Assembly: GCF_988242995.1 (NCBI RefSeq)
Contig: NZ_OZ547043.1
Strand: one strand, 5' to 3'
Length of the DNA stretch: 64,000 nucleotides
A program made the position numbers and the translations under genes. Positions 8,901-14,625 of this stretch are shown here, one piece after another; positions within the stretch are counted from its first letter, which is position 1; each line of letters begins with the position of its first letter. The notes beneath the pieces are model-generated. The model was given only the letters and a program-made list of their open reading frames with translations. It ran no database searches and was not told the origin of the DNA.

Positions 8901-8924
8901 TTGTCCATGATTGTCCATAGACAA
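8901..8924 (+). promoter_or_regulatory. candidate operator upstream of the GntR-family regulator: direct repeat TTGTCCAT x2 and palindrome TTGTC-cata-GACAA
   Basis: Sequence ttgtccatga ttgtccatagacaa read directly at 8901-8924, 15-40 nt upstream of the regulator start. Confidence 0.3.
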
Positions 8925-8938
8925 CTGTAAATGTTCAG

Positions 8939-9694
8939 GTGCGCGCCATGAAATCATTAAGTAAGTCGTCACAAATACCGCTCTATCAACAAGTGGTGGA
9001 GTGGATAAGAGAAAGTATTTATACCGGGGATTTGGTGGAAGACGATCGCATTCCTTCGGAATACCAGATTATGGATATGCTGGAAGTGAGTCGGGGAACC
9101 GTTAAAAAAGCAGTCGCCCAACTGGTAAAAGAAGGCGTGTTGATTCAGGTCCAGGGGAAGGGAACATTTGTCAAAAAAGAGAACGTGGCATATCCGTTAG
9201 GTGAAGGATTATTGTCATTCGCGGAATCGCTGGAAAGCCAGAAAATACACTTTACCACTGAAGTTATTACGTCACGGATTGAACCGGCTAATCGTTATGT
9301 GGCAGAGAAATTAAGAATAACGCCCGGTCAGGATATTCTTTACCTTGAGCGTTTACGTTCAATTGGTGATGAAAAAGCGATGCTGATAGAGAACCGTATC
9401 AATATTGAGCTATGCCCCGGCATCGTGGAAATCGATTTTAATCAACACAATTTATTTCCAACAATAGAAAGTTTGTCGCAAAGAAAAATTCGTTACTCGG
9501 AAAGTCGCTATGCCGCGCGATTAATTGGTAATGAACGCGGTCATTTTTTAGATATCAGTGAAGATGCACCCGTTTTGCATCTGGAGCAGTTAGTCTTTTT
9601 CTCCCGAGAGTTACCCGTTGAGTTTGGCAACGTCTGGTTAAAAGGAAATAAATATTATCTGGGTACCGTGCTGCAACGGCGGGAATTGAGTTAA
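8939..9694 (+). CDS. GntR-family transcriptional regulator (N-terminal winged HTH, C-terminal effector-binding domain)
   Basis: 251-aa ORF; N-terminus has typical GntR HTH (SEYQIMDMLEVSRGTVKKAVAQLVKEGVL); start could be 8939 or 8948. Confidence 0.75.
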   Translation: MRAMKSLSKSSQIPLYQQVVEWIRESIYTGDLVEDDRIPSEYQIMDMLEVSRGTVKKAVAQLVKEGVLIQVQGKGTFVKKENVAYPLGEGLLSFAESLESQKIHFTTEVITSRIEPANRYVAEKLRITPGQDILYLERLRSIGDEKAMLIENRINIELCPGIVEIDFNQHNLFPTIESLSQRKIRYSESRYAARLIGNERGHFLDISEDAPVLHLEQLVFFSRELPVEFGNVWLKGNKYYLGTVLQRRELS

Positions 9695-9706
9695 ATACAC
9701 TTTTTT

Positions 9707-10192
9707 ATGAGGAATAAAATGCAAGGCATACAGTTTCAGGAAAATTATATTCAACGACTTCCGGCAGGGTTAAGCGTTGAACAGATCATCCGTCAGTTAG
9801 CGCAACCGTTGGTTGCTGCTGAGCTGGTGGTCCCTGATTTTGCCGATCACGTACTGAAACGTGAGGCGACGTACCCAACAGGGCTGCCTACCGAACCGCC
9901 GTGCGTCGCTATTCCGCACACGGACCATAAACATGTCAGGCACAATGCAATTGCCGTCGGCATCCTGCCGGAACCGGTAGAGTTTGCCGATATGGGCGGC
10001 GATCCTGACCCCGTACCTGTCAGGGTGATTTTTTTGCTCGCCTTAAGCGAAAGTAATAAACAATTAAATGCCCTGGGCTGGATTATGGAGATGATTCAGG
10101 ATACGCCCTTTATGCGCGCCCTGCTTACGATGGAAACAACAGAAATACACACAGTAATCTTAAACAAAATGAAAGAACGAGGTGAAATATGA
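9707..10192 (+). CDS. PTS EIIA component, type 2 (galactitol/ascorbate-like)
   Basis: 161 aa; conserved phosphorylatable His context (VAIPHT); operon with EIIB/EIIC. Confidence 0.75.
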   Translation: MRNKMQGIQFQENYIQRLPAGLSVEQIIRQLAQPLVAAELVVPDFADHVLKREATYPTGLPTEPPCVAIPHTDHKHVRHNAIAVGILPEPVEFADMGGDPDPVPVRVIFLLALSESNKQLNALGWIMEMIQDTPFMRALLTMETTEIHTVILNKMKERGEI

Positions 10193-10470
10193 GTCAAACC
10201 ATTTTATTTGTCTGCGCCACGGGTATTGCCACATCCACGGCGGTAACAGAAAAAGTCATGGAATATTGTAAAGAGCACGGTCTTAACGTCAATTATTCCC
10301 AAACCAACGTTGCCTCTTTACCTGGAAATACTGACGGCGTAGCACTGGTAGTCTCAACGACTAAAGTGCCTTATGAACTCGACGTCCCGGTGGTTAACGG
10401 CTTGCCGATTATTACCGGTATTGGCGAAGAGAAAGTACTGGCGCAAATTGTTTCGATCCTTAAAAAGTAA
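10189..10470 (+). CDS. PTS EIIB component, galactitol family
   Basis: 93 aa; N-terminal active-site Cys motif (ILFVCATGIATS); 4-nt overlap with EIIA. Confidence 0.75.
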   Translation: MSQTILFVCATGIATSTAVTEKVMEYCKEHGLNVNYSQTNVASLPGNTDGVALVVSTTKVPYELDVPVVNGLPIITGIGEEKVLAQIVSILKK

Positions 10471-13406: not shown

Positions 13407-13665
13407 AACCGTGGAGGTCAGAAACAGTACTGGCCTGCATGCACGTCCGGCGGCGTGTCTGGTGAAAGCCGCCAAAAAGTTTAGCTGTAAAGTGACGCTG
13501 CATTATGAGGGTAATGATATTAATGCCACCAGCATGATGAATATTATGCGCGCCGGAATAAAAGGCGGCAAAACGGTGGAAATACGCTGCGAAGGCGATG
13601 ATGAAAATGAGGCAATACAAACTCTCACTGCCTTATTTCGTGACCGCTTCGGTGAAGCTGAATAA
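13396..13665 (+). CDS. HPr-like phosphocarrier protein paralog
   Basis: 89 aa with HPr active-site motif (NSTGLHARPAA); overlaps kinase 3' end by 11 nt. Confidence 0.75.
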   Translation: MLSKTVEVRNSTGLHARPAACLVKAAKKFSCKVTLHYEGNDINATSMMNIMRAGIKGGKTVEIRCEGDDENEAIQTLTALFRDRFGEAE

Positions 13666-13695
13666 TTAACTGATATTAAAAGATGAGGTTTTCAA

Positions 13696-14547
13696 ATGCC
13701 ATTAGTTAATGGACGGATACTGCTCGACCGCATTCAGGAAAAACGGGTATTAGCGGGCGCGTTTAATACCACCAATCTGGAGACGACGATTTCAATTTTA
13801 AACGCCATTGAGCGTTCAGGATTACCCAACTTCATTCAGATTGCGCCCACCAATGCACAACTCTCGGGATACGATTACATTTATGAAATCGTGAAACGTC
13901 ACGCCGATAAAATGGATGTTCCGGTCAGTCTTCATCTGGATCACGGGAAAACTCAGGAGGATGTTAAACAGGCGGTGCGCGCGGGCTTTACCTCGGTCAT
14001 GATTGACGGTGCCGCATTATCTTTTGAAGAGAATATCGCTTTCACCCAGGAAGCTGTCGATTTCTGTAAATCCTATGGCGTACCGGTTGAAGCGGAGCTG
14101 GGGGCGATTCTCGGCAAAGAAGATGATCACGTCAGCGAAGCCGATTGCAAAACGGAACCGGAAAAGGTGAAGACCTTTGTCGAGCGCACCGGTTGCGACA
14201 TGCTGGCAGTTTCTATTGGCAACGTTCATGGCCTGGACGATATACCGCGTATCGATATCCCCCTGCTGAAGCGCATTGCCGAAGTCTGCCCGGTGCCGCT
14301 GGTTATTCACGGCGGCTCCGGTATCGCCCCGGAAATATTACGCAGCTTTGTTAATTATCGCGTCGCTAAAGTAAATATCGCCAGCGATCTGCGCAAAGCG
14401 TTTATCACCGCCGTCGGCAAAGCGTATGTGAATAATCACAACGAGGCGAATCTGGCACGAGTGATGGCATCAGCAAAAAACGCCGTCGAGGAAGATGTGT
14501 ATAGCAAAATCCTGATGATGAATGAGGGGCATCGGTTGGTTAAGTAA
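13696..14547 (+). CDS. class II ketose-1,6-bisphosphate aldolase (GatY/KbaY/FbaA family)
   Basis: 283 aa with class II aldolase motifs LHLDHG, VEAELG, IGNVHG, VIHGGSG. Confidence 0.8.
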   Translation: MPLVNGRILLDRIQEKRVLAGAFNTTNLETTISILNAIERSGLPNFIQIAPTNAQLSGYDYIYEIVKRHADKMDVPVSLHLDHGKTQEDVKQAVRAGFTSVMIDGAALSFEENIAFTQEAVDFCKSYGVPVEAELGAILGKEDDHVSEADCKTEPEKVKTFVERTGCDMLAVSIGNVHGLDDIPRIDIPLLKRIAEVCPVPLVIHGGSGIAPEILRSFVNYRVAKVNIASDLRKAFITAVGKAYVNNHNEANLARVMASAKNAVEEDVYSKILMMNEGHRLVK

Positions 14548-14549
14548 AT

Positions 14550-14625
14550 CTTCGCCGGATGCGGCGTAAAACAACTACAATTCAATAAATTGTACCGATG
14601 CGTAGACCCTATAAGCTTACGCATC
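14550..14625. repeat. REP-like element and hairpin at the PTS-island / yhhJ junction
   Basis: gccggatgcggcgtaaa REP-like core followed by inverted repeat cgatgcgta...tacgcatcg. Confidence 0.35.

What the first reader, a model, noticed from the sequence alone, without database searches (positions are those of the whole stretch)
8901..14625. Accessory seven-gene operon after nikR: GntR regulator, Gat-family PTS, FGGY kinase, HPr paralog, class II aldolase
Where K-12 (as I recall) has rhsB, this strain has a compact co-directional operon with overlapping or tight gene junctions. A PTS already delivers a phosphosugar, so an additional FGGY kinase plus a ketose-bisphosphate aldolase implies a second phosphorylation to a 1,6-bisphosphate followed by cleavage to triose phosphates (tagatose- or fructose-like logic). 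That logic normally uses a PfkB kinase, so an FGGY kinase is unusual here. The dedicated HPr paralog suggests a private phosphorelay. Substrate is unknown.
Basis: partly seen in the sequence, partly recalled or inferred. Interest (0 to 1): 0.6.

Follow-up and report, generated by a model that had tools for sequence, protein, structure and literature searches.

The report
Orphan PTS–kinase–aldolase sugar operon
This is a real, intact seven-gene sugar-breakdown operon found in about a third of E. coli strains (and in Salmonella); its sugar is still unknown, and it probably uses an unusual kinase type to add a second phosphate before an aldolase splits the sugar.

Summary
Seven co-directional, tightly packed genes lie between nikR and yhhJ: a GntR/UTRA regulator, Gat-family PTS IIA, IIB and IIC, an FGGY kinase, an HPr and a class II aldolase. 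The complete operon is in 1635 of 5426 complete E. coli genomes, under purifying selection. K-12 has rhsB-yhhH-yrhC-yhhI there, with clean breakpoints at the nikR stop codon and a REP element.

It is orthologous to Salmonella STM3779-STM3785, still listed under "unknown sugars" in 2024. I found no functional study.

In 80 related loci from three phyla, the kinase sits beside the aldolase in 77 (the other 3 are truncated contigs). It is accompanied either by the PTS (63 loci) or, in Actinobacteria, by a second XylB-like FGGY kinase (15 loci), never both. A third of the PTS loci add a GatD-like polyol-phosphate dehydrogenase.

It remains inference.

The sugar is unidentified. D-tagatose is disfavoured: Nissle carries the operon, yet loses tagatose use when a different cluster is deleted. 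D-psicose is disfavoured too: type strain ATCC 11775 carries the operon and is psicose-negative.

Verdict: a new variant of a known pathway kind, of moderate interest.

The parts
8848..8863 (+). Candidate CRP-like site, TGTGA-N6-TCGAT. This is low confidence.
   Evidence: The sequence is read. The TGTGA half is conserved at the same position upstream of the regulator gene in the 14 Enterobacterales loci examined. The simple sigma-70 scan found no canonical + strand promoter here. The promoter is therefore inferred, not shown.
8900..8924 (+). Candidate GntR/HutC-type operator. It comprises the half-site GTTGTCCAT (8900-8908) and the palindrome TTGTCCATAGACAA (8911-8924).
   Evidence: The core GTC[CT]AT[AG]GAC lies at a fixed distance (-35) from the regulator start codon in all 14 Enterobacterales loci examined. 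The full TTGTC[CT]AT[AG]GACAA is present in 13 of them. Firmicute loci instead carry 3-5 TTGTACA-type repeats upstream of the orthologous regulator.
8948..9694 (+). GntR-family regulator of the HutC subfamily, with a UTRA effector domain. It is the likely repressor of the operon.
   Evidence: NCBIfam gives only partial matches to HutC/PhnF/TreR-type regulators, all below their cut-offs. The Salmonella orthologue (82% identical) carries PF00392 and PF07702. It is 57% identical to the Enterococcus orthologue.
9719..10192 (+). PTS enzyme IIA (PTS_EIIA_2 type). The active-site motif VAIPH is present.
   Evidence: NCBIfam matches GatA-type IIA at 57 bits and FruA IIA at 49 bits, both below their cut-offs. 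The motif is read in the translation.
10189..10470 (+). PTS enzyme IIB (Gat type). The N-terminal Cys9, in FVCATG, is present.
   Evidence: NCBIfam PRK10310 scores 60 bits against a cut-off of 95. K-12 GatB has its Cys at the same position (output).
10547..11905 (+). PTS enzyme IIC, the Gat-family permease.
   Evidence: TIGR00827 EIIC-GAT scores 475.6 bits, below the galactitol-specific cut-off of 542. It is 76% identical to the Enterococcus orthologue over 451 residues.
11898..13406 (+). FGGY-family carbohydrate kinase, called 'k1' here. It belongs to a distinct subfamily and is the proposed ketose-phosphate kinase.
   Evidence: It scores below the cut-off of every characterised FGGY equivalog. 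Family-wide motifs are DIGTTN, AGHDHMVG, LNSTGTTEG and VIGPAxxNPxWLQLKAD. Its closest K-12 paralogue is FucK, at 26.5% identity.
13396..13665 (+). HPr-family phosphocarrier protein. His15, in GLHARPA, is present.
   Evidence: TIGR01003 scores 105.9 bits against a cut-off of 47.9. It matches Gram-positive HPr models better than the E. coli PtsH model: 80 and 74 bits against 56.5.
13696..14547 (+). Class II (Zn-dependent) ketose-phosphate aldolase of the FBA/TBP family.
   Evidence: NF005943 scores 556.7 bits against a cut-off of 364, and the model is named only 'class II aldolase'. It is 37% identical to K-12 GatY. The HLDH, GNVHG, HGGSG and NIASDLR motifs are conserved.
14553..14627 (.). REP-like structured spacer between the convergent aldolase and yhhJ genes. 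It includes an 11-bp-stem hairpin at 14595-14627. It is the right-hand breakpoint of the variable segment and a likely bidirectional terminator.
   Evidence: The fold is -28.7 kcal/mol with z = -4.1 against shuffles. Homology to K-12 resumes at 14553.

Best explanation
This is a self-contained, repressor-controlled catabolic cassette for an as-yet unidentified ketose, most likely a non-fructose ketohexose or a close relative.

Proposed steps:
1. The Gat-family PTS (IIA, IIB, IIC) is charged through the general enzyme I. In Enterobacterales it also uses the operon's own HPr. It imports the sugar and phosphorylates one terminal hydroxyl.
2. The FGGY kinase k1, whose gene is translationally coupled to IIC, adds a second phosphate. 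This probably goes on C1 next to the keto group, as FucK and RhaB do, giving a ketose 1,omega-bisphosphate.
3. The Zn-dependent class II aldolase cleaves this to DHAP plus glyceraldehyde 3-phosphate (or another aldose phosphate). These feed glycolysis with no further enzyme.
4. The GntR/UTRA protein represses the operon at the TTGTCCATAGACAA operator until a pathway phosphosugar accumulates.

Shown: gene identities, intact catalytic motifs, synteny, conservation and selection.

Inferred: the order of steps, the positions phosphorylated, the bisphosphate intermediate, the regulator's mode of action, and the substrate class.
For: 1. The cassette is conserved as a unit.
- Aldolase, IIA, IIB, IIC and k1 occur together in Salmonella, Enterococcus, Listeria, Pectinatus and Anaeromonas. 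None of these type-1 loci has an isomerase or dehydrogenase.
- In 80 loci, the aldolase lies next to k1 in 77. The 3 exceptions are truncated contigs.

2. The PTS and a second kinase are interchangeable.
- 63 loci have IIABC, and 15 actinobacterial loci instead have a XylB-like FGGY kinase immediately after k1. None has both.
- Those actinobacterial loci use non-phosphorylating transporters: an RbtT/DalT-type polyol MFS or a CUT2 ABC system.
- Microbacterium keeps a separate genuine xylA-xylB pair. K2 is therefore not the housekeeping xylulokinase.

3. 21 loci add Zn-dependent dehydrogenases, one of them GatD-like (238 bits to the galactitol-1-phosphate dehydrogenase model). In those loci a PTS-made polyol phosphate would become a ketose omega-phosphate. 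That needs C1 phosphorylation before a DHAP-forming aldolase can cut it. k1 is the only candidate.

4. The aldolase keeps the metal and DHAP-phosphate motifs (HLDH, GxxHG, HGGSG). It also keeps an invariant Arg in NIAS[DE]LR. That aligns with the Arg of the TDTDLR motif of FBP aldolases, which I recall as the distal-phosphate ligand (residue role from memory).

5. k1 shares the G-H-D catalytic motif only with FucK and RhaB, which are ketose 1-kinases. FucK is its best K-12 match.

6. All seven genes are under purifying selection in E. coli. dN/dS is 0.00-0.25, and 0.06-0.07 for the kinase.

7. The Salmonella orthologues are transcribed in co-culture with chicken caecal communities but not in control medium (PMC11000858).
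Against: - No biochemical or genetic data exist for any member.
- To my knowledge, no FGGY kinase has been shown to act on a phosphorylated sugar.
- The PTS/second-kinase complementarity fits a rival equally well. In that rival, the first phosphorylation is followed by cleavage, and k1 phosphorylates the unphosphorylated product.
- The obvious candidate sugars have negative evidence. Nissle lacking its ABC-type tag cluster neither grows on nor consumes D-tagatose, although it carries this operon. The operon-positive type strain ATCC 11775 is D-psicose-negative on Biolog.
- k1 diverges much faster than its partners. It is 37% identical between E. coli and Enterococcus, against 76% for IIC and 69% for the aldolase. 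That is unexpected for an enzyme with a fixed substrate.
Confidence: 0.5

Rival explanations
1. Cleave first, phosphorylate later. The PTS (or K2 in Actinobacteria) makes a ketose 1-phosphate. The aldolase splits it into DHAP plus an unphosphorylated aldehyde such as glyceraldehyde. k1 then acts as a triose or glycerol-type kinase on that product, as in liver fructolysis.
For: - k1 scores about as well against glycerol kinase models and structures as against other FGGY kinases: 127 bits to TIGR01311, and glycerol kinases are its top PDB hits.
- It shares the NASRT-like 'LASRT' segment with glycerol kinase (GlpK motif recalled from memory).
- The PTS/K2 complementarity is equally compatible with this order of steps.
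- The Zn-dehydrogenases in type-2 loci could reduce the aldehyde to glycerol.
Against: - Type-2 loci pair a PTS with a GatD-like polyol-phosphate dehydrogenase. That would give a ketose omega-phosphate, which a DHAP-forming aldolase cannot cut without C1 phosphorylation.
- K2 is XylB-like, so it is expected to phosphorylate the distal carbon rather than C1.
- The aldolase keeps a basic residue at the distal-anion position in all three architectures.
- k1 carries the FucK/RhaB-type GHD motif, not the GlpK-type motif.
Confidence: 0.15
2. Parallel entry. k1 phosphorylates a free intracellular sugar that is not the PTS product. This could be the same sugar entering by another route, or a related ketose or polyol. 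Only one phosphate is present when the aldolase acts.
For: - All characterised FGGY kinases act on unphosphorylated sugars, polyols or aldonates (established knowledge).
- The FBA family includes monophosphate-cleaving members such as IolJ and YdjI. YdjI is a PDB hit at 148 bits.
Against: - It does not explain why k1 is retained in every PTS locus, with its gene overlapping IIC.
- It does not explain why non-PTS loci always carry two kinases.
- It does not explain what k1 does in the type-2 loci.
Confidence: 0.12
3. The 'aldolase' works in vivo as a C4-epimerase on a ketose phosphate, through retro-aldol and aldol steps on the enzyme. It would convert a rare ketose phosphate into a fructose phosphate instead of releasing trioses.
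For: Tagatose-6-phosphate 4-epimerases are reported in the related GatZ/KbaZ branch. PMC9720028 cites TagE in Sinorhizobium.
Against: - The protein is a GatY/FBA-type catalytic subunit with all aldolase motifs, not a GatZ-type protein.
- Epimerisation would not need two phosphorylating activities.
Confidence: 0.05
4. The operon is a silent, decaying remnant with no current function in E. coli.
For: - The Salmonella island is reported as H-NS repressed (PMC3604774).
- No Biolog phenotype can be assigned to it.
Against: - All seven ORFs are intact in every strain inspected: the window, UTI89, Sakai, Nissle and ATCC 11775.
- dN/dS is 0.00-0.25 while dS is comparable to that of nikR and nikE.
- The operator is conserved across genera.
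- The Salmonella genes are expressed in a caecal community.
Confidence: 0.05

Closest known systems
Salmonella enterica island STM3779-STM3785
   Same: It is the orthologous cassette with the same seven genes. Identities to the window proteins are IIC 89%, aldolase 90%, GntR 82%, kinase 63%, IIA 60% and HPr 44%.
   Different: It sits at a different chromosomal site, next to uhp, and HPr follows the aldolase. Its function is also unknown. It was described as a 'PTS with unknown specificity' in 2013 and listed under 'unknown sugars' in 2024.
E. coli galactitol pathway, gatYZABCD
   Same: It uses a Gat-family IIA/IIB/IIC and a class II aldolase of the same family (GatY, 37% identical). The route ends in a ketohexose 1,6-bisphosphate that is cleaved to DHAP and GAP.
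   Different: This operon has no GatD dehydrogenase and no GatZ partner. It has a GntR rather than a DeoR regulator, and its own HPr. The gat pathway borrows PfkA for the second phosphorylation, whereas this operon carries a dedicated FGGY kinase. The type-2 relatives in Pantoea, Raoultella and Bacillus, which have a GatD-like dehydrogenase, are the closer analogue.
PTS-dependent D-tagatose pathway of Klebsiella and Salmonella (tagKTH with gatYZ), and the fructose operon fruBKA
   Same: The logic is the same: a PTS makes a ketose 1-phosphate, a dedicated kinase makes the 1,6-bisphosphate, and a class II aldolase cleaves it. Both systems include a dedicated HPr-like carrier (TagH, FruB). This is summarised in PMC9720028.
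   Different: Those systems use Fru-family PTS components and PfkB-family kinases (TagK, FruK). This operon uses a Gat-family PTS and an FGGY kinase.
E. coli Nissle / B2 'tag' cluster between accC and yhdT (PMC9720028)
   Same: It is a strain-variable E. coli cluster encoding a transporter, a sugar kinase and a GatY-like class II aldolase. It yields tagatose 1,6-bisphosphate.
   Different: It is a different locus and uses an ABC transporter. Its kinases are encoded by genes of about 950 bp, too short for an FGGY kinase (my inference from gene length: PfkB-type). It also needs PfkA. It fully accounts for D-tagatose use in Nissle, which argues against D-tagatose as the substrate here.
L-fucose and L-rhamnose pathways (FucK/FucA, RhaB/RhaD)
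   Same: An FGGY kinase with the G-H-D motif phosphorylates C1 of a 2-ketose to feed a metal-dependent aldolase that releases DHAP (for the motif and similarity).
   Different: Those aldolases belong to the unrelated AraD-like class II family. Their substrates are 6-deoxy sugars carrying a single phosphate, and no PTS is involved.

Membership tests
PTS Gat family (TC 4.A.5), enzyme II complex | An IIC with the EIIC-GAT fold, plus separate IIB (Cys phosphorylation site) and IIA (His site) | tested here: met
   TIGR00827 scores 475.6 bits over the full length. The orthologue carries PF03611, PF02302 and PF00359. IIB Cys9 and the IIA VAIPH motif are read in the translations.
Galactitol-specific PTS (GatABC equivalogs) | A score above NCBIfam's curated cut-offs for GatA, GatB and GatC | tested here: not met
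   IIC scores 475.6 against 542.2, IIB 60.2 against 95, and IIA 57 against 139. No GatD or GatZ is present in the operon.
FGGY carbohydrate kinase family | FGGY_N and FGGY_C domains, the DxGT phosphate-1 motif, a catalytic Asp, and the GT(T/S) phosphate-2 motif | tested here: met
   PF00370 and PF02782 are found on all homologues. DIGTTN, GHD and NSTGTTEG are invariant across the family. The adenosine-motif region reads IGPA rather than the usual GGG/GGA in all PTS-type members.
Characterised FGGY subfamilies (XylB, GlpK, FucK, RhaB, GntK, LsrK, AraB) | A score above the curated equivalog cut-off | tested here: not met
   The best scores are XylB 145 against 380, GlpK 127 against 590, FucK 119 against 471, and RhaB 60 against 528. 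Identity to K-12 FucK, XylB and RhaB is at most 26.5%.
Class II (metal-dependent) FBP/TBP aldolase family, PF01116 | A TIM-barrel aldolase with the Asp-His (HLDH) motif, two further His metal ligands, and the Gly-Ser-Gly phosphate site | tested here: met
   NF005943 scores 556.7 against 364. The HLDH, GNVHG and HGGSG motifs align with AgaY (1GVF), GatY and two FBP aldolases.
Tagatose-bisphosphate aldolase (GatY/KbaY) or FBP aldolase equivalogs | A score above the equivalog cut-off, and, for GatY/KbaY, a GatZ/KbaZ partner | tested here: not met
   GatY subfamily scores 239.8 against 383, KbaY 180 against 542, and class II FBA TIGR01859 237.8 against 343. No GatZ-like gene was detected in any of the 80 loci, using the reference set.
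HPr phosphocarrier family | An HPr fold of about 85-90 aa with an active-site His15 | tested here: met
   TIGR01003 scores 105.9 against 47.9, and the GLHARPA motif is present. It is not the PtsH equivalog (56.5 against 153) and not NPr (51.9 against 119).
GntR family, HutC subfamily | An N-terminal GntR winged helix-turn-helix plus a C-terminal UTRA effector domain | tested here: met
   The 82%-identical Salmonella orthologue carries PF00392 and PF07702. Full-length but sub-threshold matches to PhnF, HutC and TreR models were found.
D-tagatose utilisation system (functional class) | It confers growth on, or consumption of, D-tagatose | tested here: not met
   Nissle 1917 carries the intact operon (ECOLIN_RS19900-19930). 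Published deletion of the unrelated accC-yhdT cluster abolishes growth on and consumption of D-tagatose, both aerobically and anaerobically (PMC9720028). Caveat: the operon might simply not be induced under those conditions.
Ketose-bisphosphate pathway (functional class) | A kinase that acts on the PTS-made ketose phosphate, and an aldolase that cleaves the resulting bisphosphate | not testable with these tools
   There is only indirect support: the PTS/second-kinase complementarity, the GatD-like dehydrogenase in type-2 loci, and the conserved distal Arg in the aldolase.

The most novel reading that the evidence does not exclude
k1 is the founding member of an FGGY subfamily that phosphorylates a sugar phosphate, acting as a ketose omega-phosphate 1-kinase. 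To my knowledge this activity has not been described for FGGY kinases. The cassette would then define a previously unrecognised route, spanning three phyla, for a rare ketohexose and related hexitols through a 1,6-bisphosphate. The PTS and a second FGGY kinase would be interchangeable first steps. The route would be maintained in ExPEC, EHEC and Salmonella subspecies I for a gut-derived sugar that standard phenotype plates do not contain.
Probability: 0.35. Interest if true: 0.65.

Novelty: new variant of a known kind. Interest (0 to 1): 0.5.

Why it matters
The operon is carried by about 30% of complete E. coli genomes, including O157:H7, UTI89, Nissle 1917 and the species type strain. Salmonella enterica subspecies I carries it too, where it was singled out as one of the islands gained by the ancestor of the warm-blooded-host subspecies. 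It is still listed as a system for an "unknown sugar".

Identifying the substrate would fill a gap in metabolic models of gut pathogens and probiotics. It could also reveal a nutrient niche. If the kinase really acts on a ketose phosphate, that would widen the known chemistry of the FGGY family. It would also supply a dedicated enzyme for making ketohexose 1,6-bisphosphates, which is of interest for rare-sugar biocatalysis.

The comparative framework built here consists of three architectures, signature motifs and a conserved operator. It makes the question directly testable.

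Tried and rejected
- **Literature.** Nine full-text searches used locus tags (STM3779-85, ECs4349-55), gene context (nikR/yhhJ/PTS) and function terms (FGGY with tagatose, galactitol, PTS or aldolase; allulose/psicose utilisation). None found a functional characterisation. The tagatose+FGGY hit on sulfoglycolysis (PMC11968277) was irrelevant.
- **D-tagatose as substrate.** Rejected as the primary candidate on the Nissle deletion data.
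- **D-psicose as substrate.** It looked attractive because Nissle grows on it and K-12 does not. However, the operon-positive type strain ATCC 11775 / DSM 30083T is psicose-negative. The AlsE preprint offers no link to this operon.
- **L-sorbose.** Nissle's growth on it is already explained by the sor operon.
- **RNA elements.** No Rfam family matches 8300-15000.
- **Promoter.** The consensus sigma-70 scan found no canonical + strand promoter upstream, and overall counts did not exceed shuffles. The promoter is therefore inferred only from cross-genus conservation.
- **Foreign origin of the kinase gene.** Per-gene G+C is uneven: regulator 42%, kinase 54%, window 49%. The kinase family is fast-evolving everywhere, so I did not pursue displacement by a foreign paralogue.
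- **Remnant in K-12.** None was found; the homology breaks are clean.
- **Gene calling in Actinobacteria.** Naive ORF calling in high-G+C loci was too noisy. It was replaced by tblastn with reference proteins and NCBIfam scans.
- **PDB.** There is no close solved structure for the kinase (best hit 88 bits, glycerol kinase). For the aldolase the best hits are about 165 bits.

Full report
**1. What is there**

Seven complete ORFs lie head to tail on the + strand between nikR (8348-8749) and the convergent yhhJ (14638-15762). The starts below follow RefSeq annotation of near-identical genomes.

| Gene | Coordinates |
|---|---|
| GntR/UTRA regulator | 8948-9694 |
| PTS IIA | 9719-10192 |
| PTS IIB | 10189-10470 |
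| PTS IIC | 10547-11905 |
| FGGY kinase ('k1') | 11898-13406 |
| HPr | 13396-13665 |
| Class II aldolase | 13696-14547 |

Three junctions overlap: IIA/IIB by 4 nt, IIC/kinase by 8 nt and kinase/HPr by 11 nt.

NCBIfam confirms every family call:
- IIC matches EIIC-GAT at 476 bits.
- HPr passes TIGR01003 (106 bits against a cut-off of 48).
- The aldolase passes NF005943 (557 against 364). NCBI names that model only "class II aldolase".
- The kinase matches FGGY models, but below the cut-off of every characterised subfamily. XylB scores 145 against 380, GlpK 127 against 590 and FucK 119 against 471.

The phosphorylation-site residues are all present in the translations: IIA VAIPH, IIB Cys9 and HPr His15. 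No Rfam family matches the region.

**2. Place in E. coli**

- A megablast of 8750-14640 finds at least 80% of the query in 1635 of 5426 complete genomes. Every match is chromosomal and nearly all genomes have a single copy.
- Carriers include UTI89, O157:H7 Sakai as ECs_4349-4355, Nissle 1917 and the species type strain ATCC 11775.
- K-12 MG1655 has rhsB-yhhH-yrhC-yhhI at the site.
- Homology between the window and K-12 ends at the nikR stop codon (8747) and resumes at a REP element (14553). No remnant of the operon is left in K-12. The two alternative segments are therefore swapped cleanly.
- The same nikR-operon-yhhJ synteny exists in E. whittamii, another Escherichia species and Citrobacter amalonaticus.
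- Between the window, UTI89 and Sakai alleles, dS (0.01-0.20) is similar to that of nikR and nikE. dN/dS is 0.00-0.25, and 0.06-0.07 for the kinase.

The operon is thus an old, functionally maintained resident that some lineages, including K-12, have lost. It is not a recent insertion.

**3. The cassette outside E. coli**

The Salmonella orthologue is STM3779-STM3785, next to uhp.

Homologues of the kinase at 35-40% identity lie in the same gene set in Enterococcus, Listeria immobilis, Pectinatus and Anaeromonas (annotated as 'Clostridium sp. D2Q-14').

Identities between E. coli and Enterococcus are very uneven:

| Protein | Identity |
|---|---|
| IIC | 76% |
| Aldolase | 69% |
| IIB | 68% |
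| Regulator | 57% |
| IIA | 40% |
| Kinase | 37% |

All kinase clades are about 35% identical to one another. They share the signature motifs DIGTTN, AGHDHMVG, LNSTGTTEG and VIGPAxxNPxWLQLKAD.

A scan of one genome per prokaryotic species, using those motifs, returned 80 loci. I annotated them by tblastn.
- The aldolase lies beside the kinase in 77 of 80. The other 3 are truncated contigs.
- **Type 1 (42 loci).** A regulator (GntR/UTRA or Mga-PRD), the aldolase, IIA, IIB, IIC and k1, with no dehydrogenase. Found in Enterobacterales, Enterococcus, lactobacilli, Selenomonadales and Coriobacteriia. Within this type, an HPr gene occurs only in Enterobacterales.
- **Type 2 (21 loci).** The same genes plus one or two Zn-dependent dehydrogenases, often with SurE. 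Found in Pantoea, Erwinia, Raoultella, Serratia, Gilliamella, Bacillus and relatives. One dehydrogenase is GatD-like, scoring 238 bits to the galactitol-1-phosphate dehydrogenase model.
- **Type 3 (15 loci, Actinobacteria).** No PTS. The order aldolase-k1-K2 is always contiguous. K2 is a XylB-like FGGY kinase scoring 305 bits, below the xylulokinase cut-off. The transporter is an RbtT/DalT-type polyol MFS or a CUT2 ABC system. Microbacterium keeps a separate, genuine xylA-xylB pair beside the cluster.
- No locus has both a PTS and K2. Exactly one of the two is present in 78 of 80.

**4. Mechanism**

*Shown:*
- A complete PTS, a kinase with intact catalytic and ATP-phosphate motifs, and an aldolase with intact metal and DHAP-phosphate motifs.
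- These genes are inherited as a unit.

*Inferred:*
- Where the phosphorylating transporter is absent, a second kinase always takes its place. The pathway therefore needs two phosphoryl transfers.
- In type-2 loci, a PTS-made polyol phosphate oxidised by the GatD-like enzyme would give a ketose omega-phosphate. A DHAP-forming aldolase can cut that only after C1 phosphorylation, and k1 is the only candidate.
- k1's closest K-12 paralogue is FucK (26.5% identity). It shares the G-H-D catalytic motif with FucK and RhaB, which phosphorylate C1 of 2-ketoses. XylB-type kinases, including K2, have G-G-D and phosphorylate the distal carbon (enzyme specificities are established knowledge).
- The aldolase has NIAS[DE]LR in all three architectures. 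The Ala matches GatY/AgaY (NVATELK), where FBP aldolases have Asp (TDTDLR). The Arg matches the residue that I recall binds the distal phosphate in FBP aldolases.

Taken together, the best reading runs as follows: sugar, then a terminal phosphate from the PTS, then a 1,omega-bisphosphate from k1, then DHAP plus glyceraldehyde 3-phosphate from the aldolase. Type 1 has no isomerase or dehydrogenase, so its substrate should itself be a ketose. Carbon arithmetic favours a hexulose. Pentulose or tetrulose bisphosphates would give products with no known fate. Sedoheptulose 7-phosphate would need no aldolase.

**5. Regulation**

- The core GTC[CT]AT[AG]GAC lies at a fixed distance from the regulator's start codon in all 14 Enterobacterales loci examined. 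The full palindrome TTGTC[CT]AT[AG]GACAA (window 8911-8924) is present in 13 of them. It is preceded by a half-site, GTTGT[CA]CAT (8900-8908).
- Firmicute loci carry repeated TTGTACA motifs instead.
- A conserved TGTGA-N6-TCGAT at 8848-8863 resembles a CRP site. No canonical sigma-70 promoter was scored.
- A structured REP-like spacer follows the aldolase (-28.7 kcal/mol, z = -4.1).
- For the Salmonella island, published work reports H-NS repression and induction by H2O2 (PMC3604774).
- It also reports ArcA-dependent expression of STM3784 (PMC3075218).
- STM3780-85 are expressed in co-culture with permissive chicken caecal communities but not in control medium, under the heading "unknown sugars" (PMC11000858).

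**6. Substrate**

No paper I could find assigns one.
- **D-tagatose is unlikely.** Nissle's growth on it and consumption of it depend entirely on a different cluster (accC-yhdT; ABC transporter, sugar kinase, GatY-like aldolase, plus PfkA). This holds both aerobically and anaerobically (PMC9720028). Nissle nevertheless carries this operon intact.
- **D-psicose is weakly disfavoured.** Nissle grows on it and K-12 does not (PMC7924626). However, the type strain has operon proteins identical to UTI89's and is psicose-negative on Biolog PM1 (PMC4334874).
- **L-sorbose** use in Nissle is explained by the sor operon.

Either the operon is not induced in standard plates, or its sugar is not on them.

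**7. Comparison with known systems**

It works like the gat, tagKTH and fruBKA routes: a PTS, a second phosphorylation, then class II aldolase cleavage. It is not a member of any of them.
- The IIABC components, the aldolase and the kinase all fall below the curated equivalog cut-offs.
- There is no GatD or GatZ.
- The kinase belongs to the FGGY family rather than PfkB.
- The FGGY-kinase-plus-aldolase pairing recalls the fucose and rhamnose pathways. Those use AraD-type aldolases and monophosphates.

It needs three corrections: the substrate is not D-tagatose itself, the operon is an old resident rather than an insertion, and the HPr is a lineage-restricted add-on rather than part of the core.

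**8. Verdict**

This is a real, intact and conserved orphan catabolic operon. It is a new variant of a known pathway type. It has a plausible but untested new activity for an FGGY kinase and an unidentified sugar. Interest is moderate. Confidence in the bisphosphate mechanism is about 0.5.

The main rival is cleavage of a monophosphate followed by phosphorylation of the aldehyde product. The PTS/second-kinase complementarity alone does not exclude it.

Noticed in passing
L010 29578-30209 (O157:H7 Sakai): In Sakai a hicA-hicB toxin-antitoxin pair is inserted between the aldolase gene and yhhJ. The window, UTI89, Nissle and ATCC 11775 lack it. The Sakai aldolase ORF is also 9 nt longer.
   Followed up: no
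window 1544-3427 versus L010 2682-18287: Sakai carries an 18-gene acyl-carrier / fatty-acid-synthase-like cluster (ECs_4324-4341) between yhhT and acpT. In the window, yhhT (1544-2674) is followed within about 750 bp by nikA (3427), so that island is absent here.
   Followed up: partly
window 8948-14547, compared with L003 and L004: Evolutionary rates inside the operon are strikingly uneven. Between E. coli and Salmonella, IIC, the aldolase, IIB and the regulator are 82-90% identical. The kinase is 63%, IIA 60% and HPr 44%. Against Enterococcus, IIC is 76% and the kinase 37%. The soluble phosphotransfer proteins evolve several times faster than the permease and the aldolase.
   Followed up: partly
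window 13396-13665: The operon's HPr scores higher against Gram-positive HPr models (PRK13780 80 bits, PRK13782 74 bits) than against the E. coli PtsH model (56 bits). It also has a Ser in the position of the Gram-positive regulatory Ser46. Together with the 76%-identical IIC, this hints at exchange with Firmicutes.
   Followed up: no
L020 and L022 (Enterobacter cancerogenus, Pantoea sp.) versus L003 and the window: Enterobacterales show three gene orders. GntR-ALD-IIA-IIB-IIC-k1-HPr is the Firmicute order with HPr appended. GntR-IIA-IIB-IIC-k1-ALD-HPr occurs in Salmonella, Klebsiella, Cedecea and Rahnella. GntR-IIA-IIB-IIC-k1-HPr-ALD occurs in Escherichia and C. amalonaticus.
   Followed up: partly
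L039, L040 and L043 (Enterococcus raffinosus, malodoratus, avium), about 10900-19400: Directly downstream of the type-1 cassette these genomes carry a second, divergent aldolase (51% identical), an Mga/PRD regulator, a Zn-dehydrogenase and another FGGY kinase (about 25% identical). This may be a second, related pathway.
   Followed up: no
L086 11976-13319 (Microbacterium testaceum) and equivalents in other Microbacteriaceae loci: A third FGGY-like ORF follows K2. Only its N-terminal domain matches kinase models (XylB 79 bits over residues 11-272). It may be a degenerate or regulatory paralogue.
   Followed up: partly
L101 29143-33452 (ATCC 11775): The type strain has a dapA-like gene, a phosphoglycerate-dehydrogenase-like gene and a mannose-family PTS (IIA-IID) inserted between rpoH and livJ. 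Nissle lacks them at that site (L099).
   Followed up: no
window 8948-14547: G+C content is uneven within the operon: regulator 42%, IIB 45%, HPr 47%, IIC and aldolase 50%, kinase 54%. The window as a whole is 49% and nikR is 56%.
   Followed up: partly
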